DNA of 64,000 nt from Chiloscyllium plagiosum (lineage: Eukaryota), in contig NC_057718.1 in the NCBI RefSeq assembly GCF_004010195.1, positions 97,281,644 to 97,345,643 on the forward strand. Reading direction: 5' to 3'. Of the stretch, positions 1,142 through 55,575 are shown piece after piece. The notes beneath the pieces were generated by a model, which worked only from the letters and a program-made list of their open reading frames with translations, had not been told where the DNA came from and searched no databases. The translations under genes and the position numbers were made by a program. Numbering within the stretch: the first letter of the stretch is position 1; each line of letters starts with the position of its first letter.

Positions 1142-1627
1142 TTAGGGACAAAAAAAAGACCGCAGATGCCGGAATCCAAACTGGACAGGCAGGAGTCCAG
1201 AAGAAGGGTTGCACTTGATGGGTCAAGTTGCCCACCTCCTGATGCTGCCTGGCTTGCTGTGTTCTTCCAGCCTCCTGCCTGTCACCCTTCTTTTCATATG
1301 ATGTGGAGATGCCAGTGTTGGACAAAGTTTAAAAATCACACAACGCCAGGTTATAGTCCAACAGGTTTATTTGGAAGCACTAGCTTTCGGAGCACTGCTC
1401 CTTCATCAGGTGATTGTTCTTAATTACAACTGGAACATGCACATTTACACATTCAATTGTCACAGTCAAAACTCACACGATACCGGGTTATAGTCCAACA
1501 GGTTTATTTGAAACCGCAAGCTTTTGTGCTGATCACAACCACCTAATGCAGGAGCAGCACTCCAAAAGCTAGTGCTTCCAAATAAACCTGTTGGACTATA
1601 ACCTGGTGTTGTGTGATTTTTTTTAAA
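1142..1627. mobile_element. Composite PLE-derived insertion: degenerate terminus plus family B foldback
   Basis: Flanked by CTTCTTTAATATGG at 1128-1141 and 1628-1641; inverted family B arms at about 1300-1412 and 1535-1627; hammerhead core on the minus strand at 1381-1409. Confidence 0.75.
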
Positions 1628-2084
1628 CTTCTTTAATATGGCAATTGCAAAGCCCATTGCAAGGGAGAGATCGAGCCCAATGCTGGGAGAGAGAGATTGA
1701 GACCTGAGCAGGTCAGAGGGTGTCTCATGGAGCATCTACAGGCCTATACACTGCTGAACTTTTAATTTATTTCTTTATTTTTCTATTTTATACTCAAGGT
1801 TCTGTACCTAAGATGGGGGGGGGGGGAATGGCTACCTTGTACACTTTTCACCTTACTCCTGTATGTAAGTACATGTGACAAACCGAATTCTAATTCTCAG
1901 TCCCTCTCTTGTCACCATCCACTGGAGAAGTTCAACATGGAAGAGAGTCAGAATGAAGAGGAAAGGGAAAACTGCTCCACACTGTCACCCAGTGGCCAGG
2001 ATCTGAAACCGTATCCAAGTCTCCAAGCATTGCTCTGCCAATGTTTCAGCTTTCTGCCTGTCACCCTAGTAGATCTGGGATACC

Positions 2085-2386
2085 TGCAGTGTGGAAACAG
2101 GCCTTTCACCCAGCAAGTCTACACCAACCTCTGAAGAATGGCCCACACAGACCCATTCCCTTACATTTCCCCCAACTACTGCTCATAATCTACACGTCCC
2201 TGAATGCTATGGGCAATTTAGTATGGCCAATTCACCTAACCTGCACAGCTTTGGTTTGTGGGAGGAAACCCACGCAGACACGGAGAGAACATGCAAACTC
2301 CATGCAGACAGTCCCCCAAGGCTGGCATTGAACCTAGGTCTGTGGTGCTGTGAGGCAGCAGTGCTAACCACTGAGCCACTGTGCCA
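2085..2386 (-). mobile_element. HE1-type V-SINE
   Basis: Reverse complement of the tRNA-like head (GTGGCTCAGTGGTTAGCACTGCTGCCTCACAG), V-domain and CR1-like tail. Confidence 0.9.
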
Positions 2387-2524
2387 TAGGCAAACCTTAT
2401 TAAATACAAATATGTGACAAGTGTCACAGTAAAAGAAAGATCACATACAAACGTGGCAAGATAAGCATTGGTAAATTTAAAGCTTACAGACATTTGTTTA
2501 CATTGTCCCATTGGAAACTTTAAA

Positions 2525-2712
2525 AAAATGTATTCATTTTGTGGGATGTGGGTGTTACTGGCTGGGCCCAGCATTTTTTGCCCGTCCCTAATTGCCCTTG
2601 AGACAGTGGGGGTGAGCTGCCTTCTTGTACCGCTGCAGTCTACCTGCTGTGGGTTGACCCAAAATGCCCTGAGGGAGGGAATTCCAGGATTTTGACCCAG
2701 AGACAGTGAAGG
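2525..2712 (-). mobile_element. 3' end of CR1/L2-like LINE (same family as 16062-16845)
   Basis: Reverse complement matches 16682-16845 (GGGTCAAAATCCTGGAATTCCCTCCCT...CAGCTCACCCCCAC). Confidence 0.8.
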
Positions 2713-2977
2713 AACTCCATCTTGATAACGTAACGACAGAGGGTTTAAAACAGCACAGAAAGCCACTTAAAATCAGTGACTTATATTAATAACAATAAGG
2801 TGTTCTTTTTGGTAATCAGCAATATTTGTACACGCATTTGGGAATTATGAACAGCGAATTTAACAGCAAAAGACATGTATTTTGCTCATTCAAGTAGTTG
2901 TTGCCTCCTGAATGCCAAGATAACGGACGTAATGCAGAGGTGACAGAAAGTTACTACCTTGCCTCCTGTCCATATAT

Positions 2978-3188
2978 CTTCGAGGAGAAAATGAGGACTG
3001 CAGGTGCTGGAGATCAGAGCTGAAAATGTGTTGCTGGAACAGCGCAGCGGGTCAGGCAGTATCCAAGGAACAGGAGAATCGACGTTTCGGGCATAAGCCC
3101 TTCTTCAGCCCTTCTTCATGAAACGTCGATTCTCCTGTTCCCTGGATGCTGCCTGACCTGTTGCGCTGTTCCAGCAACACATTTTCAG
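2978..3188. mobile_element. PLE family A foldback mini-element with hammerhead motif
   Basis: Inverted arms; TSD TCCTGTCCATATAT at 2964-2977 and 3189-3202; minus-strand CTGAAGAAGGGCTTATGCCCGAAACGTC at 3081-3108. Confidence 0.85.
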
Positions 3189-3519
3189 TCCTGTCCATAT
3201 ATAGCTGGCATTGTGATCTCCAGCGCATTTTCTTTCCCACTCTACTCAAATCCTACAACTCCTCTCTAGCTGAATCCAACTAATAGTAAAGACTGCATTA
3301 ACAACATATCTTGATAGCTCACCTGCCACCCTGTGACCTTTCCCTCGATCAGAACAATCTCCATTTGGAAGATGTTTTATGGTTTCTCTGTTGCAAATTG
3401 CTTTTCCTGAGCAAAACTCTCTCAACTGCTTCAACAACTGACGTAGCCACAGAGAACTTGAGACAGCAAGAACAATCTCGAGGGGAAAAAAAAAGAGACT
3501 GATGTTATGGCATTTTGAC

Positions 3520-3845: not shown

Positions 3846-4019
3846 TGTATCTCTAGGTATATGTTGTATCTCTGCATTTACATTAGTCCTGAAAGGGTGC
3901 AGGAACATAGAAAATTGAAGAGGAAATTGAAATGCAGAAAGTTTATCGTTAATGGCGCATATTAAAAAGAGCATGCTCTCTCCAAGAAGGTTGAGTTTAC
4001 ATTCCATGTTGAACTTGGA

Positions 4020-4333: not shown

Positions 4334-4439
4334 CAAAGCTTTAGGGGTGAAAAACAAACTGAATTTGAATCTTCCTAAGTGGAACTCAATTACTGTCACA
4401 CAAGCATAATTTACCCCAATGCTCAGACTCCAATAGTCA

Positions 4440-4690
4440 GAAACAAACACAGAAAATGCCAGAGAAACTCAGCAGGTCCTGGCAGCATCTGTGGAGAGAG
4501 AGGAACTGAGGTAATCTTCAGAAATGAAGAAGCGTCACATCGGACTCAAAATGTTAACTCTGTTTCTCTCTGGTGGCTTGTTCCCGACCTCTCCAGATCC
4601 AAAGTCAAAAGTCACATGATACCAGCTTATAGTCCAGACGGTTTATTTAAAATCATAAGCTTTCAGAGAACTGCTCCTTTATCAGATTCA
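4440..4690. mobile_element. PLE terminal fragments (family C, then family B)
   Basis: AGAAACTCAGCAGGTCCTGGCAGCATCTGTGG with a degraded hammerhead at about 4520-4560; family B motif TTATAGTCCA...CTCCTTTATCAG at about 4625-4685. Confidence 0.65.
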
Positions 4691-5152
4691 AGTTCTACAT
4701 CCTCCACCATTCCAAAGTACATCATTTACCCTCTCTCCTTCTTTTCCCCTCCTTTGATTGTTAGCTATTTACTGCAGTCCACCTCTAATCTGTATCTTCA
4801 ATCCTCTCAGTATTGTTCAAAGCACCAATTACAACTTCTTACGACTGCAGGCAGGAGTTCAGCTGCTAAGGAGAATTCTCATCTATTCTCATCTCTGAAG
4901 AAAGAAAAAGAAGTTAAGCCTTTTTATAGCACTTCTCACGAGCTCATAACTTCCCAAATTGCTTTTTAGCCAATCAAAGTGGCGTGCGGTTAAAACAGTC
5001 TCTCAAAATGAATGTACACATTGAAACTAATCAGGAGCAGAAGCAGAAAATGCCTCGAGTAAGCTTTCCAAAATATCCTACCATTGGCTGTGGACATCAG
5101 ATAGCACAGAGAATGCAGGTATGAAGGAGAATGTCTGCCTTTTATGATCTTA

Positions 5153-5576
5153 GTTAAAAATCATACAACACCAGGTTATAGTCCAACAGGTTTAATTGGA
5201 AGCACTAGCTTTCGGAGCGCCGCTCCTTCATCAGGTGGTTGTGGAGGACACAATTATAAGGCACAGAATTTATAGCAAAAGTTTACAGTGTGATATAACT
5301 GAAACTATACATTGAAAAATACCTTGATTGTTTGTTGAGTCTTTCATCTGTTCGAATATTGTGATAGTTTCACTTCTTTCATGTGTAAATCACAAAATCT
5401 TTTTTTAAAAAGTTGCATTCTCAGATGAAATGTAACAATTGGTTTTAGCTAGACAATATGTTGAAGGTATTAGCCCCCTGTGTTCTCTGTCTGTGGCATA
5501 ATGTTTAGATTGATTCTAATCTAAAAAGTGAGATAACAGAGTTTTACATGAATTCATGCAAAGTACAACGTAATAA
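5153..5576 (-). mobile_element. PLE family B 3' fragment
   Basis: Family B terminus; intact hammerhead at 5203-5237 (minus); ATGATCTTA duplicated on both sides. Confidence 0.8.
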
Positions 5577-5671
5577 TGATCTTAATGAGTTAATGAAACA
5601 AATACTGACGGTTTTCTGGCTATAACTGATGACCATTTACACACTTATTTAGAGAAGTGATGTTATTTAAA

Positions 5672-5814
5672 CTGAAAATTTAAACTTCTTCAGGAAGGCT
5701 CATGCCCGAAATGTCGATTCTCCTGCTCCTTGGATGCTGCCTGACCTGATGTGCTTTTCCAGCAACACATTTTCTGCTCTGATCTCCAGCATCTGCAGTC
5801 CTCACTTTCCCCTC
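5672..5814 (+). mobile_element. PLE family A terminus
   Basis: Degraded hammerhead plus family A tail; TSD-like TGATGTTATTTAAA (5658-5671) and TGATCTTATTTAAA (5815-5828). Confidence 0.75.
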
Positions 5815-5831
5815 TGATCTTATTTAAAACA

Positions 5832-6467
5832 AAGTTAAAAATCACACAACACCAGGTTATAGTCCAACAGGTTTAATTGGAAGCACACGAGCTTTCGGAG
5901 CGATGCTCCTTCATCAGGTGATAGTGGAGGGCTCGATCGTAACACAGAATTTATAGCAAAAATTTGCAGTGTGATGTAACTAAAATTATTGTCTGTTAAG
6001 CCTTTCATCTGTTAGAATACAGTGATAGTTTCACTTCTTTCACGTGTAAATCACAAAACCTTTTTTTAAAAAAGTTGCATTCTCGGGTTAGCTGTTAACA
6101 ATGGTGATAGCTAGACAATATGTTGAAGATTCTGGATCAGTGGTGCCTGATGAAGGGCTTTTGCCCGAAACGTCGATTTTGCTGCTCGTCGGATGCTGCC
6201 TGAATTGCTGTGCTCTTCTAGCACCACTGATCCAGAATCTGGTTTCCAGCATCTGCAGTCATTGTTTTTACCAATATGTTGAAGATGTTAACCCCCTGTG
6301 TTCTCTGTCTATGACCTGATGTTTAGATTGATTCTAATCTAAAAAGTGAGATAACAGAATTTTACATAAATTCATGCAGTTTTTGAGCTCAGAGTTGTAC
6401 ATGAATGTATGCAGTTTTTGAGCAAAGTGCAATGTAACTCTGCAAGTACAAATTCACCCCACAAAAG
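5832..6467 (-). mobile_element. PLE family B 3' fragment interrupted by a family A insertion
   Basis: Colinear with 5153-5576; interrupted at 6131-6271. Confidence 0.8.
6131..6271 (+). mobile_element. PLE family A mini-element nested in family B
   Basis: Perfect 15 bp TSD CAATATGTTGAAGAT (6116-6130, 6272-6286); hammerhead core CTGATGAAGGGCTTTTGCCCGAAACGTC at 6147-6174. Confidence 0.9.
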
Positions 6468-6516
6468 ATAGTCAAGTAAAATCAGTGATTTATATCAATA
6501 ACTATAGTATGTTCAA

Positions 6517-7420
6517 CGTTAAAAATTACACAACAACAGGTTATAATCCAGTAGATTTATTTGGAAGCACTAGCTTTCAGAGTGCTTCTCCTTCGTCAGG
6601 TAGTTGTGGAGTATGAGATCATAAGACACAGAATTTATATCAAAAGTTTACTGTGTGATGTAACTGAAATTATATATTGAAAAAGACCTGGATTGCTTGT
6701 TAAGTCTCTCATCTTTTAGAATGATCATGTTGGTTTCAGTTCTTTCATATGTAAATCACAGAATTTTTTTAAAGTTACATTCTCAAGTGAACTTTAACAA
6801 TTGGTGTCATGTCAGCCCGGATAATGCATTGAAGGTATGAGCTTCCCTATGTGAGGCTGTCTGTGTAGGACTGATTCTAATCTAAAAAAGGGATTTACAG
6901 AATCTTACATGGATTCATGCAGTTTTTGAGCAAAATAAAATGTATTAAAATATAATGTTACATTTTATTTTGCTCAAAAACTGTATGTATCCATGTAAGC
7001 GTCAGTGAATCCCTTTTTAGAATTAGTCTGACCATTGTGGCAGAGACAGCCTCACACAGAGCACCTCACACCTTCAATGCATTATCTGGACTGACATGAC
7101 ACCAATTGTTAAAGTTCACTTGAGAATATAACTTTAAAAAAGTTCTGCGATTTACGTCTGAAAGAATTGAAACCAGCATGGTCATTCTATAGAATGAGAG
7201 ACTTTACAAACAATCCAGGTCTTTTTCGATATAAAATTTAATTTACATGTAAACCTTTGCTATAAATTCTGTGTCTTATGATCTTCTACTCCACAATCAC
7301 TTGATGAAGGAGCAGCGCTCAGAAAGCTAGTGCTTCCAAATAAACCTGTTGCACTATAACCTGGTGTTGTGTGATTTGTAACTTTGTACACCCCAGTCCA
7401 ACACCGGCATCTCCAACTTA
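6517..7420. mobile_element. Large family B foldback (about 430 bp inverted arms)
   Basis: 6517-6944 is the imperfect reverse complement of 6958-7383; degenerate hammerhead near each outer end. Confidence 0.85.
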
Positions 7421-7938
7421 TGATAGCTTTCGGTTCATCATTTTGGTAATCAATGATTTTTTTACATGCCTTTTTGAGTCAGGAACAATCATTTAGCAAC
7501 AAAAAGACATGTGTTTTGCTAATCTAATAGTGTATTACCTCCAGGATACAAAGGTAAGGGACCACACTGGAAACATTACAGAAGGTTTCGTATACACTGG
7601 AAATTAGTAGGTTACTGGGAGTGTTTTAAGAAGTGGAAACCCAATAGAGGTCAAAATTATTGAACAAATTAGAGCATTATGAAGTAACCATTGAATTGTC
7701 ATGGTCAGAGATTTGGGGGATAATGTTGATCCACAGCAAGGTCAGCAGTGTGAGCTCGCCTGAGCTTTATTCCATTGACATGCACAGAACATTAGCTCAC
7801 TGTTGCTTTTACTTAATCTGAAATGAAAACCTTTGGCAATATTTCCCAATTTACTGGGAAACGAAGAAAAACGACGTCATCTAAAATTAGCCACTGAGTC
7901 ATTCAATGCAGACCCTGTGTTGACTCTGTTTAAACTTC

Positions 7939-7973
7939 CACCTGATGAAGGAGCGGCGCTCCGAAAGCTAGTG
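7939..7973 (+). ncRNA. Minimal type I hammerhead ribozyme (family B)
   Basis: CAC-CTGATGA-A-GGAGC(GGC)GCTCC-GAAAGCTA-GTG; predicted cleavage after CUA at 7970. Lies in a short insertion flanked by TTTAAACTTCCA repeats. Confidence 0.85.
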
Positions 7974-8741
7974 CTTCCAATTAAACCTGTTGGACTATAA
8001 CCTGGTGTTTTAACTTTTAACTTTAAACTTCCAACAGTTGACTGAGGCAGGAGAAACAGCTGTGGTGAAAACGAGAAACCTTTCTTTCCCAATATAGTCA
8101 CATTTGTTTTTAAACTTAGGAGGATTGTGATTGAGATATAACCTTTGGCCAGTGCAGTTCTTTTTTCGATCATATTTGCCCTGTAATTTGCATGATCCCT
8201 ATAATTCTCATGTCTGGAACCTCATTAGTAATCTCCCAGCTCACACCATGCTTTGTCACTAAAGCATTCTTTTTGCAATTATCCGTACTAACTGGCAGGT
8301 TTCTGACAGAAAGTCGGCAGCTTATGTGTTTGGAGGAAACAATGAAACGCCGAAATGAATTGAACATGAAGGATTTAATCAAAAAATTTATAACAAGAAT
8401 GAAATTGTCATTACTTAAGGACTGGTTGGTGGATCCAGTGAATGAATAATTTATGTTAACTTGATAATTAAAGGCATTACTTTAGATAAGCAGTCTGAGA
8501 GGAATCATGGAGTGGTGGCAGATCAGTTAAATGTGAAAGATGCCCTGAATAAATTTGACACAAATGGAGAAGGATTCTGTTATTTAGAGTTTGTTCAGAT
8601 AAATGGGGAGGAAAGAAATGTTCAAGTTTCTTTTTTTTTTCCACTTCTGAATATTGAGAAAGAAGCATATTGAGGAACAAGAAAATGAACAGGACTATCT
8701 TATATAGCAATATGTATTTAAATAGTTCTTTAAAATCATTG

Positions 8742-8921
8742 CTGGAACAGCGCAGCAGGTCAGGCAGCATCCAGGGAACAGGAGAATCGACGTTTCGGGC
8801 ATAAGCCCTTCCTTAGGAAACGTCGATTCTCCTGTTCCCTGGATGCTGCCTGACCTGCTGCGTTGTTCCAGCAACACATTTTCAGCTCTGATCTCCAGCA
8901 TCTGCAGACCTCACTTACTCC
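8742..8921. mobile_element. PLE family A foldback mini-element
   Basis: Inverted arms; TSD TCTTTAAAA(T/C)CATTG at 8727-8741 and 8922-8936. Confidence 0.85.
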
Positions 8922-9077
8922 TCTTTAAAACCATTGGCAGCTGGGTTTTTCTCAAAGGAAGTGAAATGGGAAACCTAAGGGTGTCATGAATGTAATTGGT
9001 CAGTAATGGTGCATTCCGCAAAGCACAGAATGCATCACCATCCATTAACAGGGGCAATTGGCAGCATATATTGAGGG

Positions 9078-9212
9078 CAAAAGTGAGGACTGCAAATGCT
9101 GGAAACCAGAGTTTAGATTAGAGTGGTGCTGGAAAAGCGATAGGTCAGAGAGGAGGGTGGAGCAGATAGGTGGGAAGGGAGATTGGCAGGTAGGACAGAT
9201 CATGGGGACAGT
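9078..9212 (-). mobile_element. Internally deleted PLE family A 3' fragment
   Basis: TSD GCATATATTGAGGG at 9064-9077 and 9213-9226. Confidence 0.8.
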
Positions 9213-10019: not shown

Positions 10020-10530
10020 AACATAGAAAATCACAGCTCAGTACAGGCCCTTCGGCCCTCGATGTTGTGCCAACCTGTGGAACCAGTCTGAAGCCCACCT
10101 TAACCTACACTATTCCATTTTTGTCCATGTGCCTCTCCAATGAGCATTTAATTGCCGTTAAAGTTGGCAAGTCTACTACTGTTGCAGGCAGGGCATACCA
10201 CACCCTTACTATTCCCTGAGCAAAGAAACTACCTGTGTCATCTGTCCTATATTTATCACCCCTCAACTTAAAGCTATGTCCCCTCCTGCTAGCCATTGCC
10301 ATCTGAGGAAAAAGACTCTCATTGTTCAAATTATCTAACCCTCTGATTATCTTATGTGTCTCAATTAAGTCACCTCTCAACCTTCTTCTCTCTAATGAAA
10401 ACTGCCTCATGTCCCTCAGCCTTTCCTCATAAGACCTTTCCTTTATACCGGGCAATATCCTAGTAAATCTCCTCTGAACCCTTTTCAAAGCTTCCGCATC
10501 CTTCCTATAATGAGGGGACCAGAACCAGGT
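10020..10530 (-). mobile_element. CR1 LINE 3' fragment
   Basis: FWSPHYRKDAEALKRVQRRFTRILPG...SLERRRLRGDLIE is the canonical CR1 ORF2 C-terminus. Confidence 0.9.
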
Positions 10531-10559
10531 TCTGAAAGCAAGGTTAAACATTGCAAGAG

Positions 10560-11300
10560 GCCTGAGGAGAAGACAGAAGAGGGATCTGTTCAGAGATTAT
10601 CTCGCACTATGGGACAAGAGTCTGGAGAAAGTTACTGTGCCAGTGTATATGTAGAATTAGGAGAGTTGGAGTGAAAGAGACAGAAAGAAGAGAGGAGGAA
10701 ATCAAATTACGTGCATAGATTGGATTGGGGAGGGCAAAGTTTTGGAGAGTTGGGGAGAAGGGTGGAAAGGATTTGAGGAGGGCAAGGGGCTTGGGAAGTG
10801 GAGAAAAAGAGAGGAAGTGAAAAGTTAACATTGAATGTGAATCATGAAGTTAAGAAATGAGCAAATTTTGTTTCAAGACCTCAGTAAAAACCGCAGAAGA
10901 TAATCTCTGGGAGGATAGTAGGAGAGATCCATGAGAATTTGAGAATCAGAGAATTTCAGAAGGCAGTTGAAGCTGTGAAGTGACTGAAATCTGTACAGAG
11001 GTGGCTAAAGCAACAAAGGTAAAAAGGGAGGTGTTGGAGAAGGCAGGTTATCTGCCTGCAGGACAGGAGCCATTGACTTTGGCAAGGGATTTACACTTGA
11101 TGGGACAATGCTTGTTTTAAACTCCCCTGACATTAGAAATAGAATCGAGTCAAATAATGAAAATTTCAGTCGACGTTTATTACAACTCTTGGAATCTACA
11201 TTCATTACAATCAAGTGGACTTCAGTGTCTGGGTTAATACCAAGCTGTGCAATTGTAAACAGTAGCACTCTTCCACTAGTGTGTCATGTTTCAAGTGGCG
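10560..11300 (-). mobile_element. Possible highly degraded L2/CR1-type LINE relic
   Basis: Strand-biased composition and weak similarity to the pre-RT region (LFDSILFLMSGEFKTSIVPSSVNPLPK). Confidence 0.3.
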
Positions 11301-13799: not shown

Positions 13800-13930
13800 C
13801 GTTGGTTCTGATGAAGAGTCACTGGATTCGAAATGTTGAATCTGTTTTCTCCCGCAGATGCTGCCTGGGCCTGCTGAGTTTCTGTAGCGATTTTGTTTCA
13901 GATTTCCAGCATCTGCAGTTCTTTGTTTTA
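13800..13930 (+). mobile_element. PLE family C terminus with degraded hammerhead
   Basis: CTGATGAAGAGTCACTGGATTCGAAATGTT followed by GATGCTGCCTGGGCCTGCTGAGTTTCT. Confidence 0.7.
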
Positions 13931-14756: not shown

Positions 14757-15060
14757 TGTGATTGGTTAGCTCAGTTGGCTGGATGGCTGGTTTGTAATAC
14801 AGAGTGACGCTAATGGTATGGATCAGAGCGGTGCTGGAAAAGCACAGCAGGTCAGGCAGCATCCGAGGAGCAGGAAAATCGACATTTCAGGCAAAAGCCC
14901 TTCATCAGGAATTGGTTGCATTCCCACACCCAGCTGAAATTGCCATGAGGTGTCACCTTCCCAAGCCCACTCACTGTCTGAGGCACAATGATCCCAGGTT
15001 AAACCACTACCAATCTTATCTCTGTAATGAGATAGCAGACCATCGGGACTGTGATCACTT
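14757..15060 (+). mobile_element. tRNA-headed SINE (third family) interrupted by a family A terminus at about 14820-14912
   Basis: TTAGCTCAGTTGG A-box-like head; body resembles 62205-62420 and the minus strand of 36770-36880. Confidence 0.5.
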
Positions 15061-16061: not shown

Positions 16062-16845
16062 GTGCTGACAAGTGACAAATAACATTCACACCACACAAAT
16101 TCCAGCTGTGACCATCACCATTGAGAGACAATCTAACCACCGCCCCTTGACATTCAATAGTGTTACCATCAATGAATCCCCCACTGTCAACATCCTGGGG
16201 GTTACCATTGACCAGAAACTCAACTGGACTCACCACATAAACACAATGGCTACAAGAGCAGGTCAGAAGCTGGAAATACTGTGGCAGGTAACTCACCTGC
16301 TGATTCCCCAGAGCCTGTCTGCCATCTGCAAGGTGCAAGTCAGGAGTGTGATGGAATACTCCCCACTTTCCTGGATGGATGTAGCTCCAACTGCACTCAA
16401 GAAGCTTGACACTATCCAGGACAAAGCAGTCCAGTTGATTGCCACCACATCTACAAGCACCCATTCCACCACCGTCACTCAGTTGCAGCAGTGTGTACCA
16501 CCTACAAGCTGCACTGCAGAAATCACCAAAGATCCTCAGACAGCACCTTCCAAACCCACGTTCACTTCCATCAAGAAGGACAGGGGCAACAGATACATGC
16601 AAACACCACTACCTTCACATTCCCCTTCAAGTCACTCACCATCCTGGCTTGGAAATATATCAGCCATTCCTTCGCTGTTGCTGGGTCAAAATCCTGGAAT
16701 TCCCTCCCTAAGGGCATTGTGGGTCAACCCACAGCAGGTGGACTGCAGCGGTTCAAGAAGACAGCTCACTCCCACTTTCTCAAGGGGCAACTAGGGACAG
16801 GCAAGAAAAGCTGGGCAGGCAGTGACGTCCACGTACCATGAATGA
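16062..16845 (+). mobile_element. 5'-truncated CR1/L2-type LINE (RT C-terminus and 3' UTR)
   Basis: ILGVTIDQKLNWTHHI...QVRSVMEYSPLSW...LDTIQDKA, then SKSWNSLP in another frame. Confidence 0.85.
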
Positions 16846-18843: not shown

Positions 18844-19539
18844 TACTAAAGTTCTGCACAGCTCCAGCATTACGTCCCTGCTTTTAAAATCTTTGCCATG
18901 ACTAATGAAGGCAGTTGTCCCGTATGCTGCCTTAACCACCTTATTACTGTAACATTTAGGGAATTGTGGACAAGTACCGCCCAGGTTCCTCTGAGTTTCC
19001 TAGTCTCCTGCCATTCATTGAGCACTCTCTTGTCTTGTTACTTCTTCCATCTGCTACTCCTCAACCCACTGACCCAGTTGATCACGATCCCATTGTACTC
19101 TGAGATCGCCTTCTTCAGCGTCGAAAATACCACCAATTTTGGTGTCATCTGCAAATATACTAACCATGCCGCCTATATTGTCATCCAAATCATTTATATA
19201 AATGACAAGCAAAGGTGGACCCAGCATTGATCCTTGCGACAGACCACTAATCACATGCTTCCAGTCTGAACAATAACCCTCTACCACCACCCACTGTCTC
19301 CGACAGTCAAACTAATTTTGAGTGCAATTGTCGAGTGATCTAACCTTACTAACCAGTCTACCATGTGGAACCTTGCTGAAGGCCTTGCTCAAGTCCATAT
19401 AGACCATGTCTACCCCTTTATATTTAATGTTCATGACATTTATAATATTACAGAGCCCTGTTACTGCGTTAACCATGGATATAACTGGTGTTTTTAACAA
19501 TAAGGATCAGTTGAACAATGCAGTGGTTTAATCCAATGC

Positions 19540-20555
19540 AAAGTTGAGAGTGTGATGCTGGAAAAGCACAGCAGGTCAGGCCGCATCCGAGGAGCAGGAG
19601 ATTCAAAGGGCATAAGCCCTTCATCAGGAATGAGGCTTGTGGGCCAGGGTACTGAGAGATAAATGGGAGGGAGGGTGGGGCTGGGAGGAAGGTAGCTGGG
19701 AATGTGATAGGCAGATGAAAGTGGGGGAGAAGGTGATAGGTCAGAGAGGAGGATGGAGCGGAGAGATGGACAGGTCAAGAGGACGGATAGTGTGGGGGGA
19801 GGGGAATTGAGAAAACTGGTGAAATCCACATTAATCCTGTGTGGTTGCAGGGTCCCAATGCGGAATATGAGGCGTCCTTTCTCCAGGCGTTGGGTGGTAA
19901 GGGTTTAGCGGTGGAGGAGGCCCAGGAATTGCATATCCTTGGTGGAGTGGGAGGGGGAGTTAAAGTCTTCAGCCACAGGGCGGTGAGTTGGTTGGCGCGA
20001 GAGTCCCAGAGATGTTCTCTGAAACGATCCGCAAGTTGGCGTCCTGTCTCCCCAATGTAGAAGAGACCACATCAGGTGCAACGGACACAGTAGATGAGTG
20101 CCCGGAGTGGGGTTTGGGCTGGTGGTGGTGGAGTGGGAGGGCGTGGATCTGACGATGGAGTCTCTCCGGAACGCTGATAGGGGTGTGGAGGGAAATATAT
20201 CTCTGGTAGTGGGGTCTGTTTGGAGGTAGCGGAAATGGCAGAGGATGATGCAATGTATATGGAGGTTGGTGGGGTGGAAGGTGAGGACGGTGGAGGAGGG
20301 TAGGGGTGGGGGTGGTGGTGGGGGCTTCTGTTGTTGTTGCATTGAGAAGGGTGAGGTTTAAGCGCGGAGGTCCAGGAAATGGAGGAGGTGCACTGGAGGG
20401 CATCATCGACCATGTGGGAGGGGAATTCCTGATGAAGGGCTTATGCCTGAAACATTGATTCTCCTGCTCCTCGGATGTTGCCTGACCTGCTGTGCTTTTC
20501 CAGCACCACACTCTCAGACCTTGATCTCTAGCATCTGCAGTCCTCACTTTCTCCT
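19540..20555 (-). mobile_element. PLE family A with GIY-YIG endonuclease relic and inverted terminus
   Basis: Minus strand gives LIYCVRCT*CGLFYIGETGRQLADRFREH and VAEDFNSPSHSTKDM (frameshifted); inverted terminal copy with a degraded hammerhead at 20428-20555. Confidence 0.85.
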
Positions 20556-21678: not shown

Positions 21679-22085
21679 GGAGAAAGTGAAGTCTGCAGAT
21701 GCTGGAGATCAGAGATGGAAATGTGTTGCTGGAAAAGGAACCCTCCAACCACAAGGGATGAACTCGGATTTCACCAGTTTCCTCATTTCCCCTCCCCCCA
21801 GCCTGTCTCAGTCAAATCCATCAAATTCAGCACCGCCTTCCTAACCTGCAATCTTCTTCCCGACCTCTCCGCCCCCACCCCAGTCTGACCTATCACCCTC
21901 ACCTTGACCTCTTTCCACCTATCACATTTCCGACGCCCCTCCCCCAAGTCCCTCCTCCCTATCTTTTATCTTAGCCTGCTGGACCAACTTTCCTCATTCC
22001 TGAAGAAGGGCTAATGCCCGAAACGTCGATTCTCCTGTTCCCTCGATGCTGCCTGACCTGCTGCGCTTTTCCAGCAACACATTTC
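21679..22085 (+). mobile_element. PLE family A 3' end with inverted 5' arm
   Basis: TSD CATATATAATTAGA at 21665-21678 and 22086-22099; ORF end GTLQPQGMNSDFTSF; pyrimidine-rich 3' UTR. Confidence 0.85.
21996..22031 (+). ncRNA. Minimal type I hammerhead ribozyme (family A)
   Basis: ATTC-CTGAAGA-A-GGGC(TAAT)GCCC-GAAACGTC-GATT; predicted cleavage after GUC at 22027. Confidence 0.8.
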
Positions 22086-22139
22086 CATATATAATTAGAA
22101 GTAGGGCTTTGGGTAGTGTTGAGAAAAGATAGACCTGGG

Positions 22140-25268: not shown

Positions 25269-25514
25269 CTGTCTGCAGTATTTCACTTTCATTCAGTATT
25301 GGGGAGCGCAGCGGTGTAGCTTTTCCATCGCTAGATCCTGGACCATAATGGAGGGCCTGGATTCAGGATCTCTTTCTTTTGACTGGAAGTTGCTTTTGAA
25401 ATGTGTTTGAGTGGGAATATGTGCATCACAGAATCGCAAAATTGTTACGATGTAAAACGGGGCCATTCGGTCCATCGTACCTGCAACTGCACTTCAAACA
25501 AGCATCATTATCTA

Positions 25515-25812
25515 GTCTGTAAGTTAGCTCGCTGAGCTTGTAGATTTGTTTTCAGATGTTTCATCACCATACTAGGTAACATCATCAGTGAGAGTCTCTG
25601 GTGAAGCGCTGGTGGGATATCCCACCTCTCTATCTATAGGTCTTGGTTTCTTAAGGTGGGTGATGTCATTTCCAGTTCTTTTCTTCAAGGGAAGGTAGGT
25701 GGGGTCGAAATGGATGTGTTTATTGATGGAGTTCAGGTTTGAATGCCATCCTGTGAGGATTCTTGTGCGTGCCTTTGTTTCACCTGTCCTAGGGATATGT
25801 ATATTGTCCCAG
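25515..25812 (-). mobile_element. PLE family D (Penelope/Poseidon-like) 3' end
   Basis: Frameshifted GIY-YIG C-terminus WDNIHI/LGQVKQRHAQE/WHSNLNSINKHIHFDPTYLPL followed by a hammerhead motif. Confidence 0.75.
25552..25591 (-). ncRNA. Hammerhead ribozyme motif (family D, slightly decayed)
   Basis: Minus strand TCA-CTGATGA-T-GTTACC(TAGTAT)GGTGAT-GAAACATC-TGA. Confidence 0.7.
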
Positions 25813-38680: not shown

Positions 38681-38685
38681 GTAGA

Positions 38686-40460: not shown

Positions 40461-40571
40461 GGCTAGCCATGACATTTCGCAGAGATGTTAGCAGCATTGC
40501 TTTGGAAACAAAAACTAAAGTTGCTGGAAAAGCTCAGCAGGTCTAGCAGCATCTTGTGATGAGAAATAAAA

Positions 40572-40607
40572 GTTAACGTTTCGGGTCCGGTGACCCTTCC
40601 TCAGAAC
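40572..40607 (-). ncRNA. Minimal type I hammerhead ribozyme (family C) in a PLE terminus at about 40505-40607
   Basis: Minus strand GTT-CTGAGGA-A-GGGTC(ACCG)GACCC-GAAACGTT-AAC. Confidence 0.85.
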
Positions 40608-42114: not shown

Positions 42115-42315
42115 TGGAGACAGTAGGGACTGCAGATACTGGAAGCCAGAGTCCAATAGATGTAGGGCTTGAAAAGCACAACAAGTCAGACAGCATCCGA
42201 GAGGCTGGAAAATCAACATTTCGGGCCGAAACCCTTCGTCAGGACTCGCTTGACTTTCCTGCCCCTAGAATGCTGTGTGACCCGCTGTGCTTTCCCAGCT
42301 CTATGTCTATTGACT
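42115..42315. mobile_element. Diverged PLE family A-like foldback
   Basis: Inverted arms; degraded minus-strand hammerhead CTGACGAAGGGTTTCGGCCCGAAATGTT. Confidence 0.7.
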
Positions 42316-43832: not shown

Positions 43833-44126
43833 GCTAGAGTGGTGCTAGAAAAGCACAGCAGGTAAGGCAGCATCCGAGGAGCAGGAGAGTCGACGTTTCG
43901 GGCAAAAGCCCTTTCTCAATTCCTGCTGAAGGTCTTTTGCCCGAAACGTTGATTTTCCTGCTCCTCGGATGCTGCCTGACCTGCTGTGCTTTTCCAGCAC
44001 CACTCTGATCTAAACTCTGGCTTCCAGCACCTGCAGTCCTCACTTTTGCCAAGAGGGAGAAACTACTTCTCTAGCACCACTCTAATCTTGACTCTGATCT
44101 CCAGCATCTGCAGTACCCACTTCTGC
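43833..44126. mobile_element. Chimeric PLE family A foldback containing an inverted copy of 48115-48271
   Basis: TSD CTTTCCTTC(A/G)AAG at 43820-43832 and 44127-44139; 44041-44071 is the exact reverse complement of 48115-48145. Confidence 0.9.
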
Positions 44127-46995: not shown

Positions 46996-48136
46996 TCGTG
47001 CAAGTGGCCATGCTTGGCTGCCCTCTGGGGAACCCCACATACAAACATAAACCTCATCCTGGTCCAAGCCAGTGCACAGCAAGCATTAGTGCAAACAGTT
47101 GCTCCCTTGCCCTTCCTTCACCCAAGGGCATGGAGCCCACTGCAGTGCCCACCTGCTATCTGGAATGACAGTGGGTAACTCTGCACAGAGCAGTGACAGG
47201 AGCTTAGCGATTTGTCTCATTTGGTCAGGGAGCAGATTCCCCCAGTCAGTCACAGGGGCCATTTCCCACATGCAATTCTGTACAAGGAAACAGCGACAAT
47301 TTTTCAAAACGGAGGAAGCTAAATGAAGGGCCAAGTGTAAAGGCATCCATCTTTTGAGGTGCCAAGTTCTGATGAGATAATCCATCAAGTCAAACCATTA
47401 TAGAGAGCATGGTATATTCAAAAGCAGGCACATCTTGTTAAATTATAACTGTAAAGGGCACTAAGGCACTCACTGACAATCATGCATAGAATGTGCATTT
47501 GCTTTTCCTTCAAGAAGCATACACAGAAAGAACAAGTGACTTTGTTGTTTATCTCTGAGAATCCAATGAAGCATTAAACACTACTGCTGCTGGTTTAAAA
47601 AAAAAGTGAATGATGTCTTTGCTTCAAGAGCTCATTAATCTGTGATTTGATCTTTAATGACATCTCCCATTAAACAAGCTCCTGTCTGCTACCATGCAGT
47701 GCGACATGAGCAAGCCAGTTAGACTTACATCCACTGCAGATTTCACCCCATTTAAAAACACATCATGTTTAGCGCCTTGTTGCTAGGTAGCTGGCTGGCC
47801 ATGTGTAGTTTCTAGGCACACAACTCATGCTTTGTGCATTTAAATGTAACCCCTGTGAAGTGCTCAATTGATTTTGTCCAAGCAATCTTCAATTCTATTT
47901 TTTTTGCGCGTTTCCATTTTTAGGAGCCAGTGATGTTAATGAGCTCTTTATGAGTGCAACATAGCTTAAAGGCCAGGCTGGCCAGCTCATCTAAGGACGC
48001 TGGGGAAGATGCAGCTCTAATCATGGAAGGCTACTAATGGGCAATAAATGTCATGGTCATTTATGTTTGAAAGCAAAGATTACATCTTCTAAATTTTTGA
48101 TTTGATTTCAAATGGAGAAGTAGTTTCTCCCTCTTG

Positions 48137-48273
48137 GCAAAAGTGAGGACTGCAGGTGCTGAAAACCAGAGTTTAGATCAGAGAGGTGCTGGAAAAGCAC
48201 AGCAGGTCAGGCAGCATCCGAGGAACAGGAAAATCAACGTTTCGGGCAAAAGCCCTTCATCAGGAATGGAGGC
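48137..48273 (-). mobile_element. PLE family A terminus with intact hammerhead core (48236-48263)
   Basis: 15 bp TSD AGTTTCTCCCTCTTG at 48122-48136 and 48274-48288; minus-strand CTGATGAAGGGCTTTTGCCCGAAACGTT. Confidence 0.9.
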
Positions 48274-48288
48274 AGTTTCTCCCTCTTG

Positions 48289-52375: not shown

Positions 52376-52399
52376 GCCCAGTCATCCCTTGGTTTTACA

Positions 52400-53112
52400 G
52401 AGTCATATAGCATGGAAGCAGGCCCTTCAGTCCAACATGTCCATGCTACTCAGGTTCCCTAAACTGAATGCGTTGCATTTGGCCCATACCCCTCTAAACC
52501 TTTCCTATCTTCTGGAATACTGTGGGCAGCTGTGGTCACTCTGTTTTGAAAGAATATTATTAAACAGGAGAGGGTTCAGAAAAGATTTCGCAGGGTGTTG
52601 TCGGGAATGGAGCACATAAAAATATACTGGAAAGGCTGGGACTTCTTTCACTGGAGAGGGGTGACCTTATTGAACTTCATAAAATTCTGAGGGGGGCATA
52701 GATAAAGTCCATTGGAAGAGTGTTTCCCTGGGGTGGGGTAGGTCAAAACTAGAGGGCATATTTTTACACAGAGAGTGGTTCATGCGTGTTATGACCATCC
52801 AGAGAAAGTAGTGGATGTGGGTACAGTTGCAACATTTAAATAATATTTGGTTAAATTCAGGAATAGGAAAGATTTGGAGGGATATGGGCCAAATGTAAGT
52901 AAATGGGACAGGTTTAGTTTGGGAACGTGGTCGCCGTGGATTGGTTAGAACAAAGAGCCCGTTTCTGTGTTGTGTGACTGTATCCGCGTACCCATCCAGA
53001 TGCCTTTTAAATGCTGTGCCAGCCTCCACCATTTCCTCTGGTAGCTCGTTCCATGCACACACCACCCTCTGTGTGAAAATATTGCCCCTCAAGTCCCTTT
53101 TAAATCTTTCCC
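52400..53112. mobile_element. Nested HER1/CR1 3' fragments on both strands
   Basis: A minus-strand HER1 tail (about 52400-52510 and 52985-53112) is split by a plus-strand fragment. Confidence 0.75.
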
Positions 53113-53769
53113 CTCTTTGCCAATTACCACATAACTGAAATTTGTAGCAAGAGGCCTTGAAAGTGTCACATTTACAGATTGCTGCACATTGCTGATTTAT
53201 ATGAAGCAAACTTGATGTCGTTGAAATATGTTGCTTTGGAGCATTTGTCATTGGGACGTAAATTGGGACAGTCACCTTTGGTTGATTTACAAAACCATTC
53301 CAGCTGCTGCCATCTCTTGAAAACCATTTTCCTGGTGCATGAGAGACTAAATTGGTTTTGAAGTGAGTGATAGCTCCTCTGGTTTATTTTTGTGTGTTTT
53401 CCCTCTGTTCGACTTTGCTCTCTTATCCATCAGTGAGGTCGGTTGCAGAGTGCGTGGGCTGACGACTGAATGTACAGTGTTCAAACTCTGAATGAAACTC
53501 CCGCGCTTAATGACATTGGGTCGAGGACTCAGGGGCGGACATTCTCCCCCATTGATGGGGGATAATGGGAGGTTCCAGCCAAACAGTTAGTGGGCACAGT
53601 GTCGCTGATTCAACCTCATTGTGGCCAAGATGCGGTGCGATTTGTGAGGAAGTTGGATGTGTCAGTGAAGACTGTTGGCAGTGCAAAAGAATGAGCTGGC
53701 TGGCAGCTCCCCCAGTTGGTTCAATGGGTAAATACACCACCTGGAGGTGATCACTGACTGACGTTGAGA

Positions 53770-54215
53770 ATAGAAGCAGGAGTAGGCCATTCGGCCCTTC
53801 GAGCCTGCTCCACCATTTAATCTGATCATGACTGATCATCCATCTCAGTCTCCCCATACCCTTTGATCCTTTTAGCCCTAAGAATTGTATCTAACTCCTT
53901 TTTGAAAATAGTCAATGCTTTGGTCTCAAATGTTTTCTGTGGTAGGAAATTCCACAGGCTCCCCACTCTCTGGGTGAAGACATTTCTCCCCATCTCAGAC
54001 CTAAATGGCCTACCCCGTATCCATAATGATCCCGGCTCTGGGCTCTGCAGTCATCGGGCACATCCTTTTTGCATTTACCCTGTCTAGTTGCGTTAGAATT
54101 TTATAGTATGCTATGGGATCCCATAGAGCCACACAGCACGGAAACAGACCCTTCGGCCCAACTCATCCATGCTGATCAGGTTTCCCAAACTGAACGAGTC
54201 CCAATTGCCAGTGTT
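53770..54215 (-). mobile_element. CR1 3' fragments
   Basis: GAAGCAGGAGTAGGCCATTCGGCCCTTCGAGCCTGCTCC tail and a HER1 tail. Confidence 0.75.
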
Positions 54216-54744
54216 TGCCCCCACATAATCGCGCTCTGCTTGACTGGGCAGAGTTTAAAAGCCTCAGCTAGCAAGTGAGGAGAAGGATTGAGGGGTGGAA
54301 TCTTCTGGCCTCAACTTGACTAGGTTTCTGCTGGAAATCCCCCTGCCTTCCCACTCCTATCCCGAGTAGGACTGGAGCAGGAATGCCCTTGCACAGCCTC
54401 CCTGTCCCGCTGCCAATTGAAGTTTGGAAGTTGGCCATTAATGACAACTTGAGGGTCTCATCCCATCAGAATTGAAGAGTGTGGTGCTGGAAAAGCACAG
54501 CAGGTCAGGCAGCATCCGAGGAGCAGGAGAATCGATGCTTCGGTAATAAGCCCTTCATCAGGAATGAGAATGCCCACCTGCCATGGGAAGAACCCAAAGA
54601 CAGGTGGGTAACTCGACCCATAGTGAGCATGATGAACAAACCAGTGTGGGCTTTTCTGTAGGGGTATGGTGGACCGTATTCCACAGAGATGCCAGCTTCC
54701 AGTTGGCTGGCACCTTTCGGCCAATGGGCCTTTTGACCCTGGCA

Positions 54745-55575
54745 TTCCTAATTAAGGGAGCTGCATTATGAGAGTAAGGAAGCCTTACTGCAGCTGTACA
54801 AGATGCTGGTGAGACCACACTGTGGGCAGTTTTGGCTCCCTTTATTGAAGGGAAGGTAGCGTTTCCTTAGAGGCAGTTCACGATGAGTTTCACTCGGATG
54901 ATCCCTGGGATGGAGGGATTGTGAGCAAAGGCTGAACATGTTGGGACTCCCTACTCACTGGAGTTTAGAAGAATAGGAGGTGACCTCATTGAAACACATC
55001 GGATTCTTAAGGGGCTTGACAGGGTAAAAGCTGAGAGGATGTTTCCCCCTCATGGGAGAGTCTAGGACCAGAGGGCACAGTCTCAGAATAAAGGGACACC
55101 AATTCAATAATGAAATGAGGAGGTATTTCTTCCCTCAGAGGGTTGAGAGTCTTTGAAGTTCCTTGCCACAGAGAGAGCTGTGGGGGTAGACTCCTTGTGT
55201 ATATTTAAAACTGACCAGTTGAGGAATCAAGGATTATGGCGAAAGGGCAGGAAAATGGACCTGAGAAATGTTAAGTTTAGATCAGAGTGGTGCTGGAAAA
55301 GCACAGCAGGTCAGGCAACATCCGAGGAGCAGGAAAATCGATGTTTCAGGCAAAAGCCCTTCATCAGGAATCCTGAAACATCGATTTTCCTGCTCTTTGG
55401 ATGCTTCCAGACCTGCTGTGCTTTTCCAGCACTGCTCTGATCTAAACTCTGGTTTCCAGCATCTGCAGTCCTCACTTTTGCCCCATGAGGAATGTTAAAT
55501 CAGCCATGATCCTGCTGAATGGCGGAGAAGGTTCGAGGGGCCGAATGGCCTACTTCTGCTCCTATTCCTTATGAT
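54745..55575 (+). mobile_element. CR1 3' portion with a nested family A foldback (about 55272-55482)
   Basis: CAGCTGTACAAGATGCTGGTGAGACCACAC...CTGGAGTTTAGAAGAA; insertion flanked by TGAG(A/G)AATGTTAA. Confidence 0.8.

What the first reader, a model, noticed from the sequence alone, without database searches (positions are those of the whole stretch)
1381..55367. Four PLE families carry the same loop-less minimal hammerhead ribozyme, with covarying helices
Seen in sequence: family A ATTC-CTGAAGA-A-GGGC(TAAT)GCCC-GAAACGTC-GATT (21996-22031 +); family B CAC-CTGATGA-A-GGAGC(GGC)GCTCC-GAAAGCTA-GTG (7939-7973 +); family C GTT-CTGAGGA-A-GGGTC(ACCG)GACCC-GAAACGTT-AAC (40572-40607 -); family D TCA-CTGATGA-T-GTTACC(TAGTAT)GGTGAT-GAAACATC-TGA (25552-25591 -). 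Helix I (CAC/GTG, GTT/AAC, TCA/TGA) and helix II differ in sequence but keep their pairing, and all have one extra base after CUGANGA. Helix III has no loop and is a 4-nt palindrome, ACGU in A and C and AGCU in B (D has ACAU, consistent with CpG decay). Established: minimal type I hammerheads occur in PLE terminal repeats, and dimeric cleavage is known for hammerheads with unstable helix III (newt satellite 2). Inference: these motifs need a second copy to form helix III, and the ACGU versus AGCU difference would make pairing family-selective. I counted over 20 intact or decayed motifs by eye. The class is known; this density and the possible selectivity may not be described in sharks.
Basis: partly seen in the sequence, partly recalled or inferred. 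Interest (0 to 1): 0.72.

Follow-up and report, generated by a model that had tools for sequence, protein, structure and literature searches.

The report
Penelope hammerheads at capped RNA start
The small self-cutting-RNA motifs are real, but they are the known minimal hammerheads at the ends of Penelope-like jumping genes; the scattered copies were likely copied from the capped, uncut start of the element's RNA and are likely inert, and the proposed family-matching code is predicted by base pairing but not shown to matter.

Summary
Observation confirmed: all four motifs are exact. There are 14 strict motifs against 0 in 40 shuffles, and 34 intact or decayed copies. They lie downstream of Penelope-like GIY-YIG ORFs. 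Loop-less helix III, the extra base, the palindrome, dimer action and covarying families were all described in 2014 (PMC4209133). The genome holds 95,453 exact pattern matches, about 2x10^5 by extrapolation.

The selectivity idea is weak. A, C and D share ACGU, so helix I must do most of the sorting. Head-to-head pairs are homotypic (AA 9,973, BB 2,068, AB 24), but this fits fold-back on one template.

Extra result: a TATA box and initiator put the predicted start 4-8 nt before the core. Copies pile up there, and family B copies carry an untemplated G (93 of 100 listed). Family B RNA is polyadenylated about 28 nt past the cut site and is read uncut. I found no cleavage footprint. This scan reported these elements, the start site and the poly(A) signal before, on other DNA. 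Verdict: new members of a known kind.

The parts
21996..22031 (+). Family A minimal hammerhead; predicted cut after 22027; helix I has a U.U mismatch; 21996 is the predicted transcription start (A of an initiator-like TCATTC)
   Evidence: junction pile-up at 21996 in laid reads and genome-wide
21855..22087 (+). Family A pLTR copy: 3' UTR, hammerhead and tail, 189 nt behind the C-terminal end of a GIY-YIG ORF fragment at 21737-21811
21965..21971 (+). Conserved TTTATCT element 31 nt before the predicted start (TATA-position element, non-canonical)
   Evidence: at -35 to -37 in 22 of 129 held A copies, at no other offset; most copies lack upstream sequence
7939..7973 (+). Family B minimal hammerhead (AGCU palindrome), predicted cut after 7970; solo stub 7939-8025
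5152..5390 (-). Family B pLTR copy with the full layout: TATAAA 5274-5269, predicted start 5242, hammerhead 5237-5203 (cut between 5206 and 5205), ATTAAA 5196-5191, family-wide poly(A) sites mapping to 5179 and 5176, tail
40572..40607 (-). Family C minimal hammerhead (ACGU); tail shared with family A; stub 40511-40607
25552..25591 (-). Family D minimal hammerhead (ACGU decayed to ACAU); A9, the extra T and G10.1 form an ATG (25582-25580) that opens a frame through the tail
25514..25739 (-). Family D pLTR copy with upstream ORF end and 3' UTR (Poseidon-type)
1306..1621 (.). Family B head-to-head inverted insertion (strict motif with C3 at 1409 on minus; decayed motif near 1543 on plus)
2984..3188 (.). 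Family A fold-back inverted stub
8739..8921 (.). Family A fold-back inverted stub
43835..44052 (.). Family A fold-back inverted stub
55280..55482 (.). Family A fold-back inverted stub (strict motif, C3 at 55367 on minus, begins at the predicted start)
5831..6051 (-). Family B pLTR copy (strict motif, C3 5917)
6510..6756 (-). Family B pLTR copy (strict motif, C3 6599)
13805..13924 (+). Family C-type stub (strict motif, C3 13808; G-A-G-U-C helix II variant)
14819..14912 (-). Family A stub beginning at the predicted start (strict motif, C3 14908)
20425..20555 (+). Family A stub beginning at the predicted start (strict motif, C3 20429)
19539..20288 (-). 5'-truncated family A element: broken linker and GIY-YIG fragment (19785-20288), then 3' UTR, decayed hammerhead and tail
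42116..42244 (-). Older A-related stub (strict motif, C3 42242; GAGUC helix I)
48134..48275 (-). Family A stub (strict motif, C3 48263)

Best explanation
These are minimal type I hammerhead motifs in the terminal repeats (pLTRs) of Penelope-like retrotransposons; each likely cuts only with a second copy of its own family, most likely the copy at the other end of the same transcript, and the scattered genomic copies are likely inert products copied from the capped, uncut 5' end of that transcript. Shown: motif anatomy and linkage to PLE ORFs; a TATA box or TATA-position element about 30 nt before an initiator-like A lying 4 nt (A, C) or 8 nt (B) before the core; a pile-up of copy ends at that A, with an untemplated G before it (clear in B and in one A subfamily); polyadenylation of family B RNA 55-58 nt after the core start; and copies that keep tail sequence beyond the poly(A) site. 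Inferred: the pLTR works like U3-R-U5 with the hammerhead in R. Reverse transcription starts inside the tail of the 5' repeat and runs to the cap. It then either integrates as a 90-130 nt stub, folds back on itself to give the head-to-head pairs, or jumps to the 3' repeat to copy the ORF. Inferred and untested: when the 5' and 3' hammerheads of one transcript pair, probably with help from the element's protein, the cut would remove the cap and the poly(A) tail, ending translation or giving a ligatable unit-length RNA. Family matching then follows from geometry and needs no palindrome code.
For: Motif real. PLE linkage: A endonuclease matches Pfam GIY-YIG above cut-off; A hammerheads lie 117-227 nt behind the ORF ends and D hammerheads about 190-290 nt behind the endonuclease hits; B and C have one locus each; RT motifs in L047 (A) and L090 (D). 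Promoter geometry. 5' ends in a 1.2 Mb sample not chosen by motif: A 73 of 159 within -12..0, 0 in -44..-13 and 22 longer; B 26 of 65, 0 and 12; a second method gave A 58 of 119. Genome-wide, 5,132 copies of one A subfamily start at -4 and 851 B copies at -8. The base before them is G in 66 of 100 and 93 of 100 listed (hand counts), against 26.5% expected and 24 of 73 at the control position; script count in held loci for B is 10 of 11. RNA run X19: 842 + 655 reads with poly(T) at 5176/5179, sense-biased depth running through the cut site; signal hexamer in 22 of 26 B copies. Only 2 of 73 strict motifs have a same-strand partner within 5 kb; 31 of 109 A, 15 of 38 B, 1 of 19 C and 3 of 20 D copies are fully intact. 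Frangieh et al. 2024 (PMC11167929) showed internal RT initiation downstream of the hammerhead, uncut RNA as the main substrate and protein-assisted cleavage in a lizard Poseidon.
Against: No cleavage was measured, and no read ends pile up at either cut site; those libraries would lose a 28-nt 3' product, so this does not test cleavage. Copies starting at the cut site are not in excess: 270 against 353 at a control position. The cap-G excess did not replicate for family A in my small mixed set of held loci (G 9 of 33; 5 of 13 for the N7=A subfamilies), where one subfamily has a native T there. Many listed junctions are inversions whose G could be templated. No 5'-end RNA data were available. 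I recovered no full-length element, so two hammerheads on one transcript is taken from the literature. A poly(A) signal is absent from most A (61 of 68), C (6 of 6) and D (13 of 13) tails within 100 nt. D shows no sharp 5' pile-up (n = 25), and the C run of that script failed. 4 of 12 family B inverted pairs differ by a GT indel between arms, which could mean two templates. The double-hammerhead fold is marginal by nearest-neighbour energy (-1.9 to +6.5 kcal/mol against two free helix II hairpins) and is not the predicted homodimer minimum.
Confidence: 0.68

Rival explanations
1. One reading: the 4-nt palindrome is a family code, so transcripts pair and cut only with their own family (ACGU versus AGCU), and this selectivity has a biological role.
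For: In the double-hammerhead model every pairing of B with another family keeps only 2 of 4 helix III pairs and costs 10.5-15.1 kcal/mol, against -1.9 for B-B. Head-to-head junctions within 20 nt: AA 9,973, BB 2,068, AB 24, whereas random pairing would give about 9,000 AB. B keeps AGCT in 35 of 38 copies. No paper in the library holds hammerhead + heterodimer + Penelope.
Against: A, C and D share ACGU. Their mixed pairs fail at helix I instead: A-D and C-D lack the pair next to the cut at both sites, and A-C at one of two. The arms of A pairs agree at N7 in all 50 listed matches, and two of 12 inspected pairs share private changes (L033, L156), so homotypy is finer than any palindrome code and fits one template. 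4 of 20 AB loci were mutated AA or BB; about 54 AB junctions are expected from chance adjacency alone.
Confidence: 0.12
2. The motif is a protein-licensed switch: the element's own protein binding near the RT start site folds a single hammerhead, or any nearby pair, into the active form, so RNA dimerisation through the palindrome is secondary.
For: PMC11167929: the lizard Poseidon hammerhead cleaved only with protein, and C3G or G8C abolished it. Family D has a similar overlap of start codon and ribozyme. PMC4209133 found only low activity even for dimers. The dimer fold is marginal in energy.
Against: All four families keep a self-complementary 15.1-16.1 segment and switch both inner letters together (CG versus GC), which a monomer would not need. 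A loop-less helix III cannot close within one strand.
Confidence: 0.3
3. The hammerhead is a passenger that the elements tolerate; it no longer cuts in these lineages.
For: No cleavage footprint. Abundant uncut polyadenylated RNA. The dominant A subfamily spread with a U.U mismatch in helix I. Naiad elements spread without canonical hammerheads, and PMC8557442 raises the idea that hammerheads parasitise PLEs. Catalytic mutants did not impair insertion in vitro.
Against: The core boxes are kept in families with unrelated flanks (A/C, B, D), with both-sided changes between families and within them: D helix I pair 3 is T-A 11, G-C 4, C-G 2 of 20; C helix II is G-C 9, A-T 4 of 19, and the linkage among 100 listed C matches has p = 9e-4. 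This indicates selection in the source elements.
Confidence: 0.12

Closest known systems
Minimal hammerheads (min-HHR) in pLTRs of metazoan Penelope-like elements, Cervera and De la Pena 2014 (PMC4209133; parts 1-2 of 4 read, 2 supplements searched, 1 not searchable)
   Same: No helix III or loop 3, an extra base between 9 and 10.1, a G10.1-C11.1 pair, palindromic 15.2-16.2, proposed dimer action, several covarying families per genome, mostly solo copies, opposite-strand pairs, found in fish Poseidon and Neptune elements.
   Different: Copy number: about 4,000 in coelacanth and 9,000 in Xenopus there, against 95,453 exact matches here (descriptors differ). Helix II is shorter here (4-6 bp against 7-8 in Schistosoma). 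No cartilaginous fish was found by my term search of the supplements. The start site, cap G and poly(A) layout are not in the parts I read.
Poseidon of Anolis carolinensis, PAc, Frangieh et al. 2024 (PMC11167929; parts 1-2 of 4 read)
   Same: Hammerhead overlapping the ORF start (as in family D), internal RT initiation downstream of it giving the tail, uncut RNA as template, and no RNA-seq ends at the cut site.
   Different: One Poseidon studied in vitro; no transcription start, cap signature, fold-back hot spot or poly(A) site reported in what I read; Neptune-type elements not tested.
Penelope elements of Adineta vaga, Arkhipova et al. 2013 (PMC3846280; passages)
   Same: A putative TATA box and initiator-like sequence in the pLTR; head-to-head inverted pLTRs with palindromic junctions ascribed to self-priming.
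   Different: It proposes an antisense template and has no hammerhead link in the passages seen; here the ends fit fold-back of sense-derived cDNA at the RNA 5' end.
Lunse, Weinberg and Breaker, RNA Biol 14:1499 (not held; seen only as a reference title and a summary in review PMC6765202)
   Same: Small PLE-associated hammerheads with a palindromic short stem III that cleave as dimers.
   Different: Unknown: I could not check whether it tests heterodimers or lists sharks.
Non-LTR retrozymes and amphibian satellite 2 (PMC7229834, passages; bioRxiv 10.64898/2026.07.22.740005, parts 1-3 of 5 read)
   Same: Type I hammerheads that work better as dimers; 126,247 motifs in axolotl; one chondrichthyan genome was among those sampled, and retrozymes were found in it.
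   Different: Those are tandem arrays, mostly of canonical hammerheads; here the copies are solo or inverted stubs, and no such array was found in the window.
Drosophila virilis Penelope promoter, Schostak et al. 2008 (PMC2377424; passages)
   Same: Transcription starts inside the upstream pLTR, and the tandem layout is needed for expression.
   Different: It has a TATA-less internal promoter with an intron before the hammerhead; here B, C and D have an upstream TATA box, and A, B and C start almost at the hammerhead.

Membership tests
PLE minimal hammerhead (min-HHR) | Conserved CUGANGA and GAAA boxes with U16.1 and H17 | tested here: met
PLE minimal hammerhead (min-HHR) | No helix III loop; palindromic 15.1-16.1 segment | tested here: met
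   ACGT or AGCT and CpG-decay forms in all four families
PLE minimal hammerhead (min-HHR) | Extra base between 9 and 10.1, and a G10.1-C11.1 pair | tested here: met
   72 of 73 strict motifs have the extra base; G-C or G-T at the first pair in 99 of 109 A, 33 of 38 B, 16 of 19 C and 18 of 20 D
PLE minimal hammerhead (min-HHR) | Covariation across and within families | tested here: met
PLE minimal hammerhead (min-HHR) | Present in both flanking repeats of a full element | tested here: inconclusive
   Found behind the endonuclease end in all four families; no complete element recovered
PLE minimal hammerhead (min-HHR) | Self-cleavage as a dimer, not as a monomer | not testable with these tools
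   Only energy models and indirect read and junction data
EN+ Penelope-like element | C-terminal GIY-YIG endonuclease | tested here: met
   A: Pfam PF01541 above cut-off and Atlas neighbours; D: PF01541 below cut-off, E 6e-4 and 0.017; C: E 0.026 and 50% to A; B: tblastn to A at E 1e-5, one locus, no Pfam hit
EN+ Penelope-like element | Penelope-type reverse transcriptase upstream of the endonuclease | tested here: inconclusive
   RT motifs read by eye in L047 (A) and L090 (D) (motif labels recalled), but no Pfam hit; not seen for B or C
EN+ Penelope-like element | 5' truncation, inverted 5' copies and an optional 30-40 nt tail | tested here: met
   (3' ends cluster at +80-99 and +110-129)
Neptune clade (A; B and C presumed) | CX2-5CxxC zinc-finger linker before the endonuclease | tested here: inconclusive
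   Present in A (L069, L037); region not recovered for B or C; no tree built; criterion from PMC8557442
Penelope/Poseidon clade (D) | No zinc-finger linker (the clade criterion); ORF start overlapping the hammerhead as in PAc | tested here: met
   no tree built
Non-LTR retrozyme | Tandem repeats with a hammerhead in each unit | tested here: not met
   No such array in the window; 2 of 73 motifs have a same-strand partner; not searched genome-wide

The most novel reading that the evidence does not exclude
The Penelope pseudo-LTR here is functionally a true U3-R-U5 unit with the hammerhead filling R, between the cap and the poly(A) site. The two hammerheads at the ends of one transcript pair through the palindrome and helix I and remove the cap and poly(A) tail in one step, switching the mRNA to a circularisable template. 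The hundreds of thousands of stubs are strong-stop cDNAs that record the cap as an extra G. This would explain pLTR regeneration, head-to-head inversions and the purpose of the dimer-only ribozyme together.
Probability: 0.3. Interest if true: 0.62.

Novelty: new member of a known kind. Interest (0 to 1): 0.3.

Why it matters
The motif class, its dimer logic and its family diversity are published, so the finding as written adds a genome with a very high load (about 60 intact-looking motifs per Mb). What the genome adds is a fossil record of the retrotransposition cycle. Copy ends map the transcription start to within a base or two in two families, and show that the template was likely capped and uncut. 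Family B places the ribozyme between the cap and a used poly(A) site. This extends the single in vitro study of a Poseidon element to other lineages, and gives exact constructs for the open question of what PLE hammerheads do. It also gives a caution: copies that begin at the cut site can arise by fold-back through helix I and are not proof of cleavage in vivo.

Tried and rejected
Rfam scan: no hammerhead family reached even E 5, so it is uninformative for this class. Tandem-array (retrozyme) reading: rejected for the window. Cleavage footprint in genomic copies: 270 copies of the tested A subfamilies start at the cut site against 353 at +31. 26 of the 100 listed cut-site starts are the same inversion junction joined through the helix I strands (hand count), and all three +28 starts are second arms of inversions; rejected for family A in this genome. 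Two-RNA dimer as the cause of inverted pairs: not supported for A, open for B. Read ends at the cut sites: none listed; run X20 laid nothing on the A copy, and contig runs cannot show ends. Among indexed runs no RNA holder was listed. Pfam did not recognise the RT or thumb fragments or several endonuclease fragments. Single-strand folds with tail keep helix II but are no more stable than shuffles (z -0.6 to -1.7). The family C part of the 5'-end script failed, so C relies (26 of 61 in -12..0, with a second cluster at +19 that I read as an alignment artefact). No full-length element was recovered. Literature searches for novelty: hammerhead ribozyme + Penelope + shark gave 1 irrelevant paper; Penelope-like + pLTR + TATA + hammerhead gave 0; hammerhead + heterodimer + Penelope gave 0; Penelope + Chondrichthyes + ribozyme gave 3; none of the listed papers holding 'pLTR' in the PLE sense held 'strong-stop'. 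Lunse et al. was not readable. The bioRxiv supplements and one 2014 supplement were not seen and may list shark motifs.

Full report
Checking the observation. The four quoted motifs are present letter for letter. A strict loop-less type I descriptor finds 14 motifs in the window and none in 40 dinucleotide shuffles; allowing one core mismatch gives 18 against a mean of 0.075. Homology search gives 34 copies that span the motif. To avoid selecting for pairing, I collected copies from 120 genome stretches plus the window by core boxes and tail only. Helix II pairs hold in 75-100% of copies at each position. Helix I is 3 bp in B and D and 3-4 bp in C. In most A copies it is 2 bp, a U.U mismatch and 1 bp. 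The palindrome is ACGT (A, C, D, with CpG-decay forms) or AGCT (B). Both-sided changes occur between families and within D and C. A and C share their tail and related endonucleases, so there are three lineages rather than four.

Numbers. The window lies in a 3.56 Gb genome. Exact patterns give 82,570 (A), 12,186 (B), 507 (D) and 190 (C) matches, with reversed-pattern controls at 0. In 1.14 Mb of stretches not chosen by motif there are 73 strict motifs, 64 per Mb or about 2x10^5 genome-wide (57 per Mb in interior stretches, 103 near contig ends). The window has 220 per Mb. Published counts are about 4,000 for coelacanth and 9,000 for Xenopus (PMC4209133), and 126,247 mostly canonical motifs for axolotl (PMC7229834), with different descriptors.

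What carries the motif. A hammerheads lie 117-227 nt behind the end of GIY-YIG ORF fragments. These carry the CX2-5CxxC linker that marks Neptune and Nematis, and L047 adds RT motifs. D lies behind a Poseidon-type endonuclease without the linker. Its extra T makes an ATG that opens a frame through the tail in most of the 20 copies translated, much as in lizard PAc. B and C each have one locus with an endonuclease fragment 420-450 nt upstream. No complete element was recovered.

What is already known. Cervera and De la Pena 2014 describe the loop-less motif, the extra base, the G10.1-C11.1 pair, the palindrome, the dimer model, covarying families within a genome, solo and opposite-strand copies, and occurrence in fish Poseidon and Neptune elements. 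They found no cleavage for a monomer and low cleavage for dimers and trimers. A review cites a second study showing dimer cleavage (that paper is not held). Frangieh et al. 2024 show internal RT initiation downstream of the hammerhead, uncut RNA as the main template, and cleavage only with protein.

The selectivity idea. Two of the four palindrome letters are fixed by the core, and three families share the inner CG. In a double hammerhead helix I also forms between the two copies. Modelled mixed pairs with B keep 2 of 4 helix III pairs and cost 10.5-15.1 kcal/mol. A-D and C-D keep helix III but lose the pair beside the cut at both sites, and A-C loses it at one. So pairing rules predict selectivity, mostly through helix I. 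As a genomic test I counted head-to-head junctions within 20 nt: AA 9,973, BB 2,068 and AB 24. Four of 20 inspected AB loci are mutated AA or BB, and chance adjacency predicts about 54. But the two arms of A pairs agree at N7 in all 50 listed matches, and two of 12 share private changes. This points to fold-back on one template, so the test does not support a palindrome code. Four of 12 B pairs differ by a GT indel, which I cannot explain.

Where copies begin. If cleavage defined the template, copies would start at the cut. They do not: 270 start there against 353 at a control position, and 26 of 100 listed are one inversion junction joined through the helix I strands (hand count). Instead 73 of 159 A copies and 26 of 65 B copies begin within 12 nt upstream of the core, with none between -44 and -13 in that analysis (a BLAST-based analysis found 4 of 119 A copies in -40..-13). 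Long copies show why. B has TATAAA at -38 or -40 and an initiator-like A at -8. C has TATAAA at -33 and TCAGTT with A at -4 (2 long copies in the count, 3 by eye). A has TTTATCT at -35 and TCATTC with A at -4. D has a TATA-like box near -48 (promoter consensus and spacing recalled). Genome-wide, 5,132 copies of one A subfamily begin at -4, against 16,602 that read through -8, and 851 B copies begin at -8. The base before the junction is G in 93 of 100 listed B and 66 of 100 listed A copies (48 of 72 without inversions), against 26.5% expected and 24 of 73 at the cut-site control (hand counts, tests). An untemplated G is the recalled signature of reverse transcriptase copying a cap. The script check on held loci confirmed B (10 of 11) but not A (9 of 33, mixed subfamilies).

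RNA. In run X19 (about 2% read), family B reads are sense-biased, and 842 + 655 carry poly(T) at positions 55-58 nt after the core start. That is 17-20 nt after an A(A/T)TAAA hexamer and about 28 nt after the cut site, and depth runs through the cut site. Family A reads lie on both strands, drop about fivefold upstream of 21996, show inversion joints there, and have no pile of ends at the cut. These reads come from many copies and largely mirror genomic junctions; they show uncut RNA, not absence of cleavage. Genomic B copies extend to +80-115, beyond the poly(A) site, so they cannot have been primed at the poly(A) tail.

Mechanism. Shown: anatomy, linkage, end distribution, poly(A) use in B. 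Inferred: transcription starts at the hammerhead's 5' edge; RT primes inside the tail of the 5' repeat, reaches the cap, and then integrates a stub, folds back, or jumps to the 3' repeat. Untested: the two hammerheads of one transcript pair, likely with protein help, and remove the cap and poly(A) tail. Only 2 of 73 strict motifs have a same-strand partner within 5 kb and most copies are damaged, so the window's motifs are likely inert.

Novelty. The finding as written is a new instance of a class described in 2014. My searches found no paper on heterodimer selectivity, on sharks with these motifs by name, or on the TATA-start-hammerhead-poly(A) layout. However, a TATA and initiator in a rotifer pLTR, transcription from the upstream pLTR and internal priming are in print, one chondrichthyan was screened for retrozymes, and one key paper was unreadable. 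Earlier notes of this scan reached similar readings on other DNA. My start-site idea was noted before I saw them; the cap and cut-site tests came after. Interest 0.3.

Noticed in passing
L079, L080, L165, L171 (family B inverted pairs): The two arms differ by a GT dinucleotide immediately 3' of the predicted cut site in 4 of 12 pairs: RT slippage or two different templates.
   Followed up: partly
window 40545-40580 (-) and loci L098-L112: Family C tail looks like a 3' splice site: a branch-point-like sequence at the cut site, a pyrimidine tract, then CAG followed by ATG. Not conserved in most A subfamilies.
   Followed up: no
L069:2979 onward: The A subfamily with a perfectly paired helix I also carries AATAAA at about +75 to +79 (7 of 68 A copies have a hexamer there), unlike the dominant U.U subfamily.
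   Followed up: partly
L005:1569-2066; L072:1500-2440: Family B elements carry a (CA)n/(TG)n microsatellite in the 3' UTR between the ORF end and the promoter.
   Followed up: no
L174, L176-L182, L184-L188, L190-L191: About 16 genuine A/B head-to-head junctions, several with both arms ending near their own start sites; the count fits chance adjacency but a few could be real mixed events.
   Followed up: partly
window 4437-9183: Dense cluster of about 15 PLE fragments of families A, B and C within 5 kb, some nested, which drives the window's above-average density.
   Followed up: partly
The plus arm and the 48263 copy are nearly identical over the motif and tail, but I did not verify a shared host flank.
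   Followed up: partly
window 10105-10596 (-) and 16069-16794 (+): Broken fragments that look like LINE (CR1/L2-type) reverse transcriptase C-termini (label recalled; no Pfam support).
   Followed up: partly
window 57307-57607: Degenerate (AC)n tract of about 150 units.
   Followed up: no
G000:C4:54039857-54040067 and C1:17711310-17711699: Same-strand pairs of family C (177 nt apart) and family B (355 nt apart) motifs: natural candidates for cis dimer cleavage tests.
   Followed up: no
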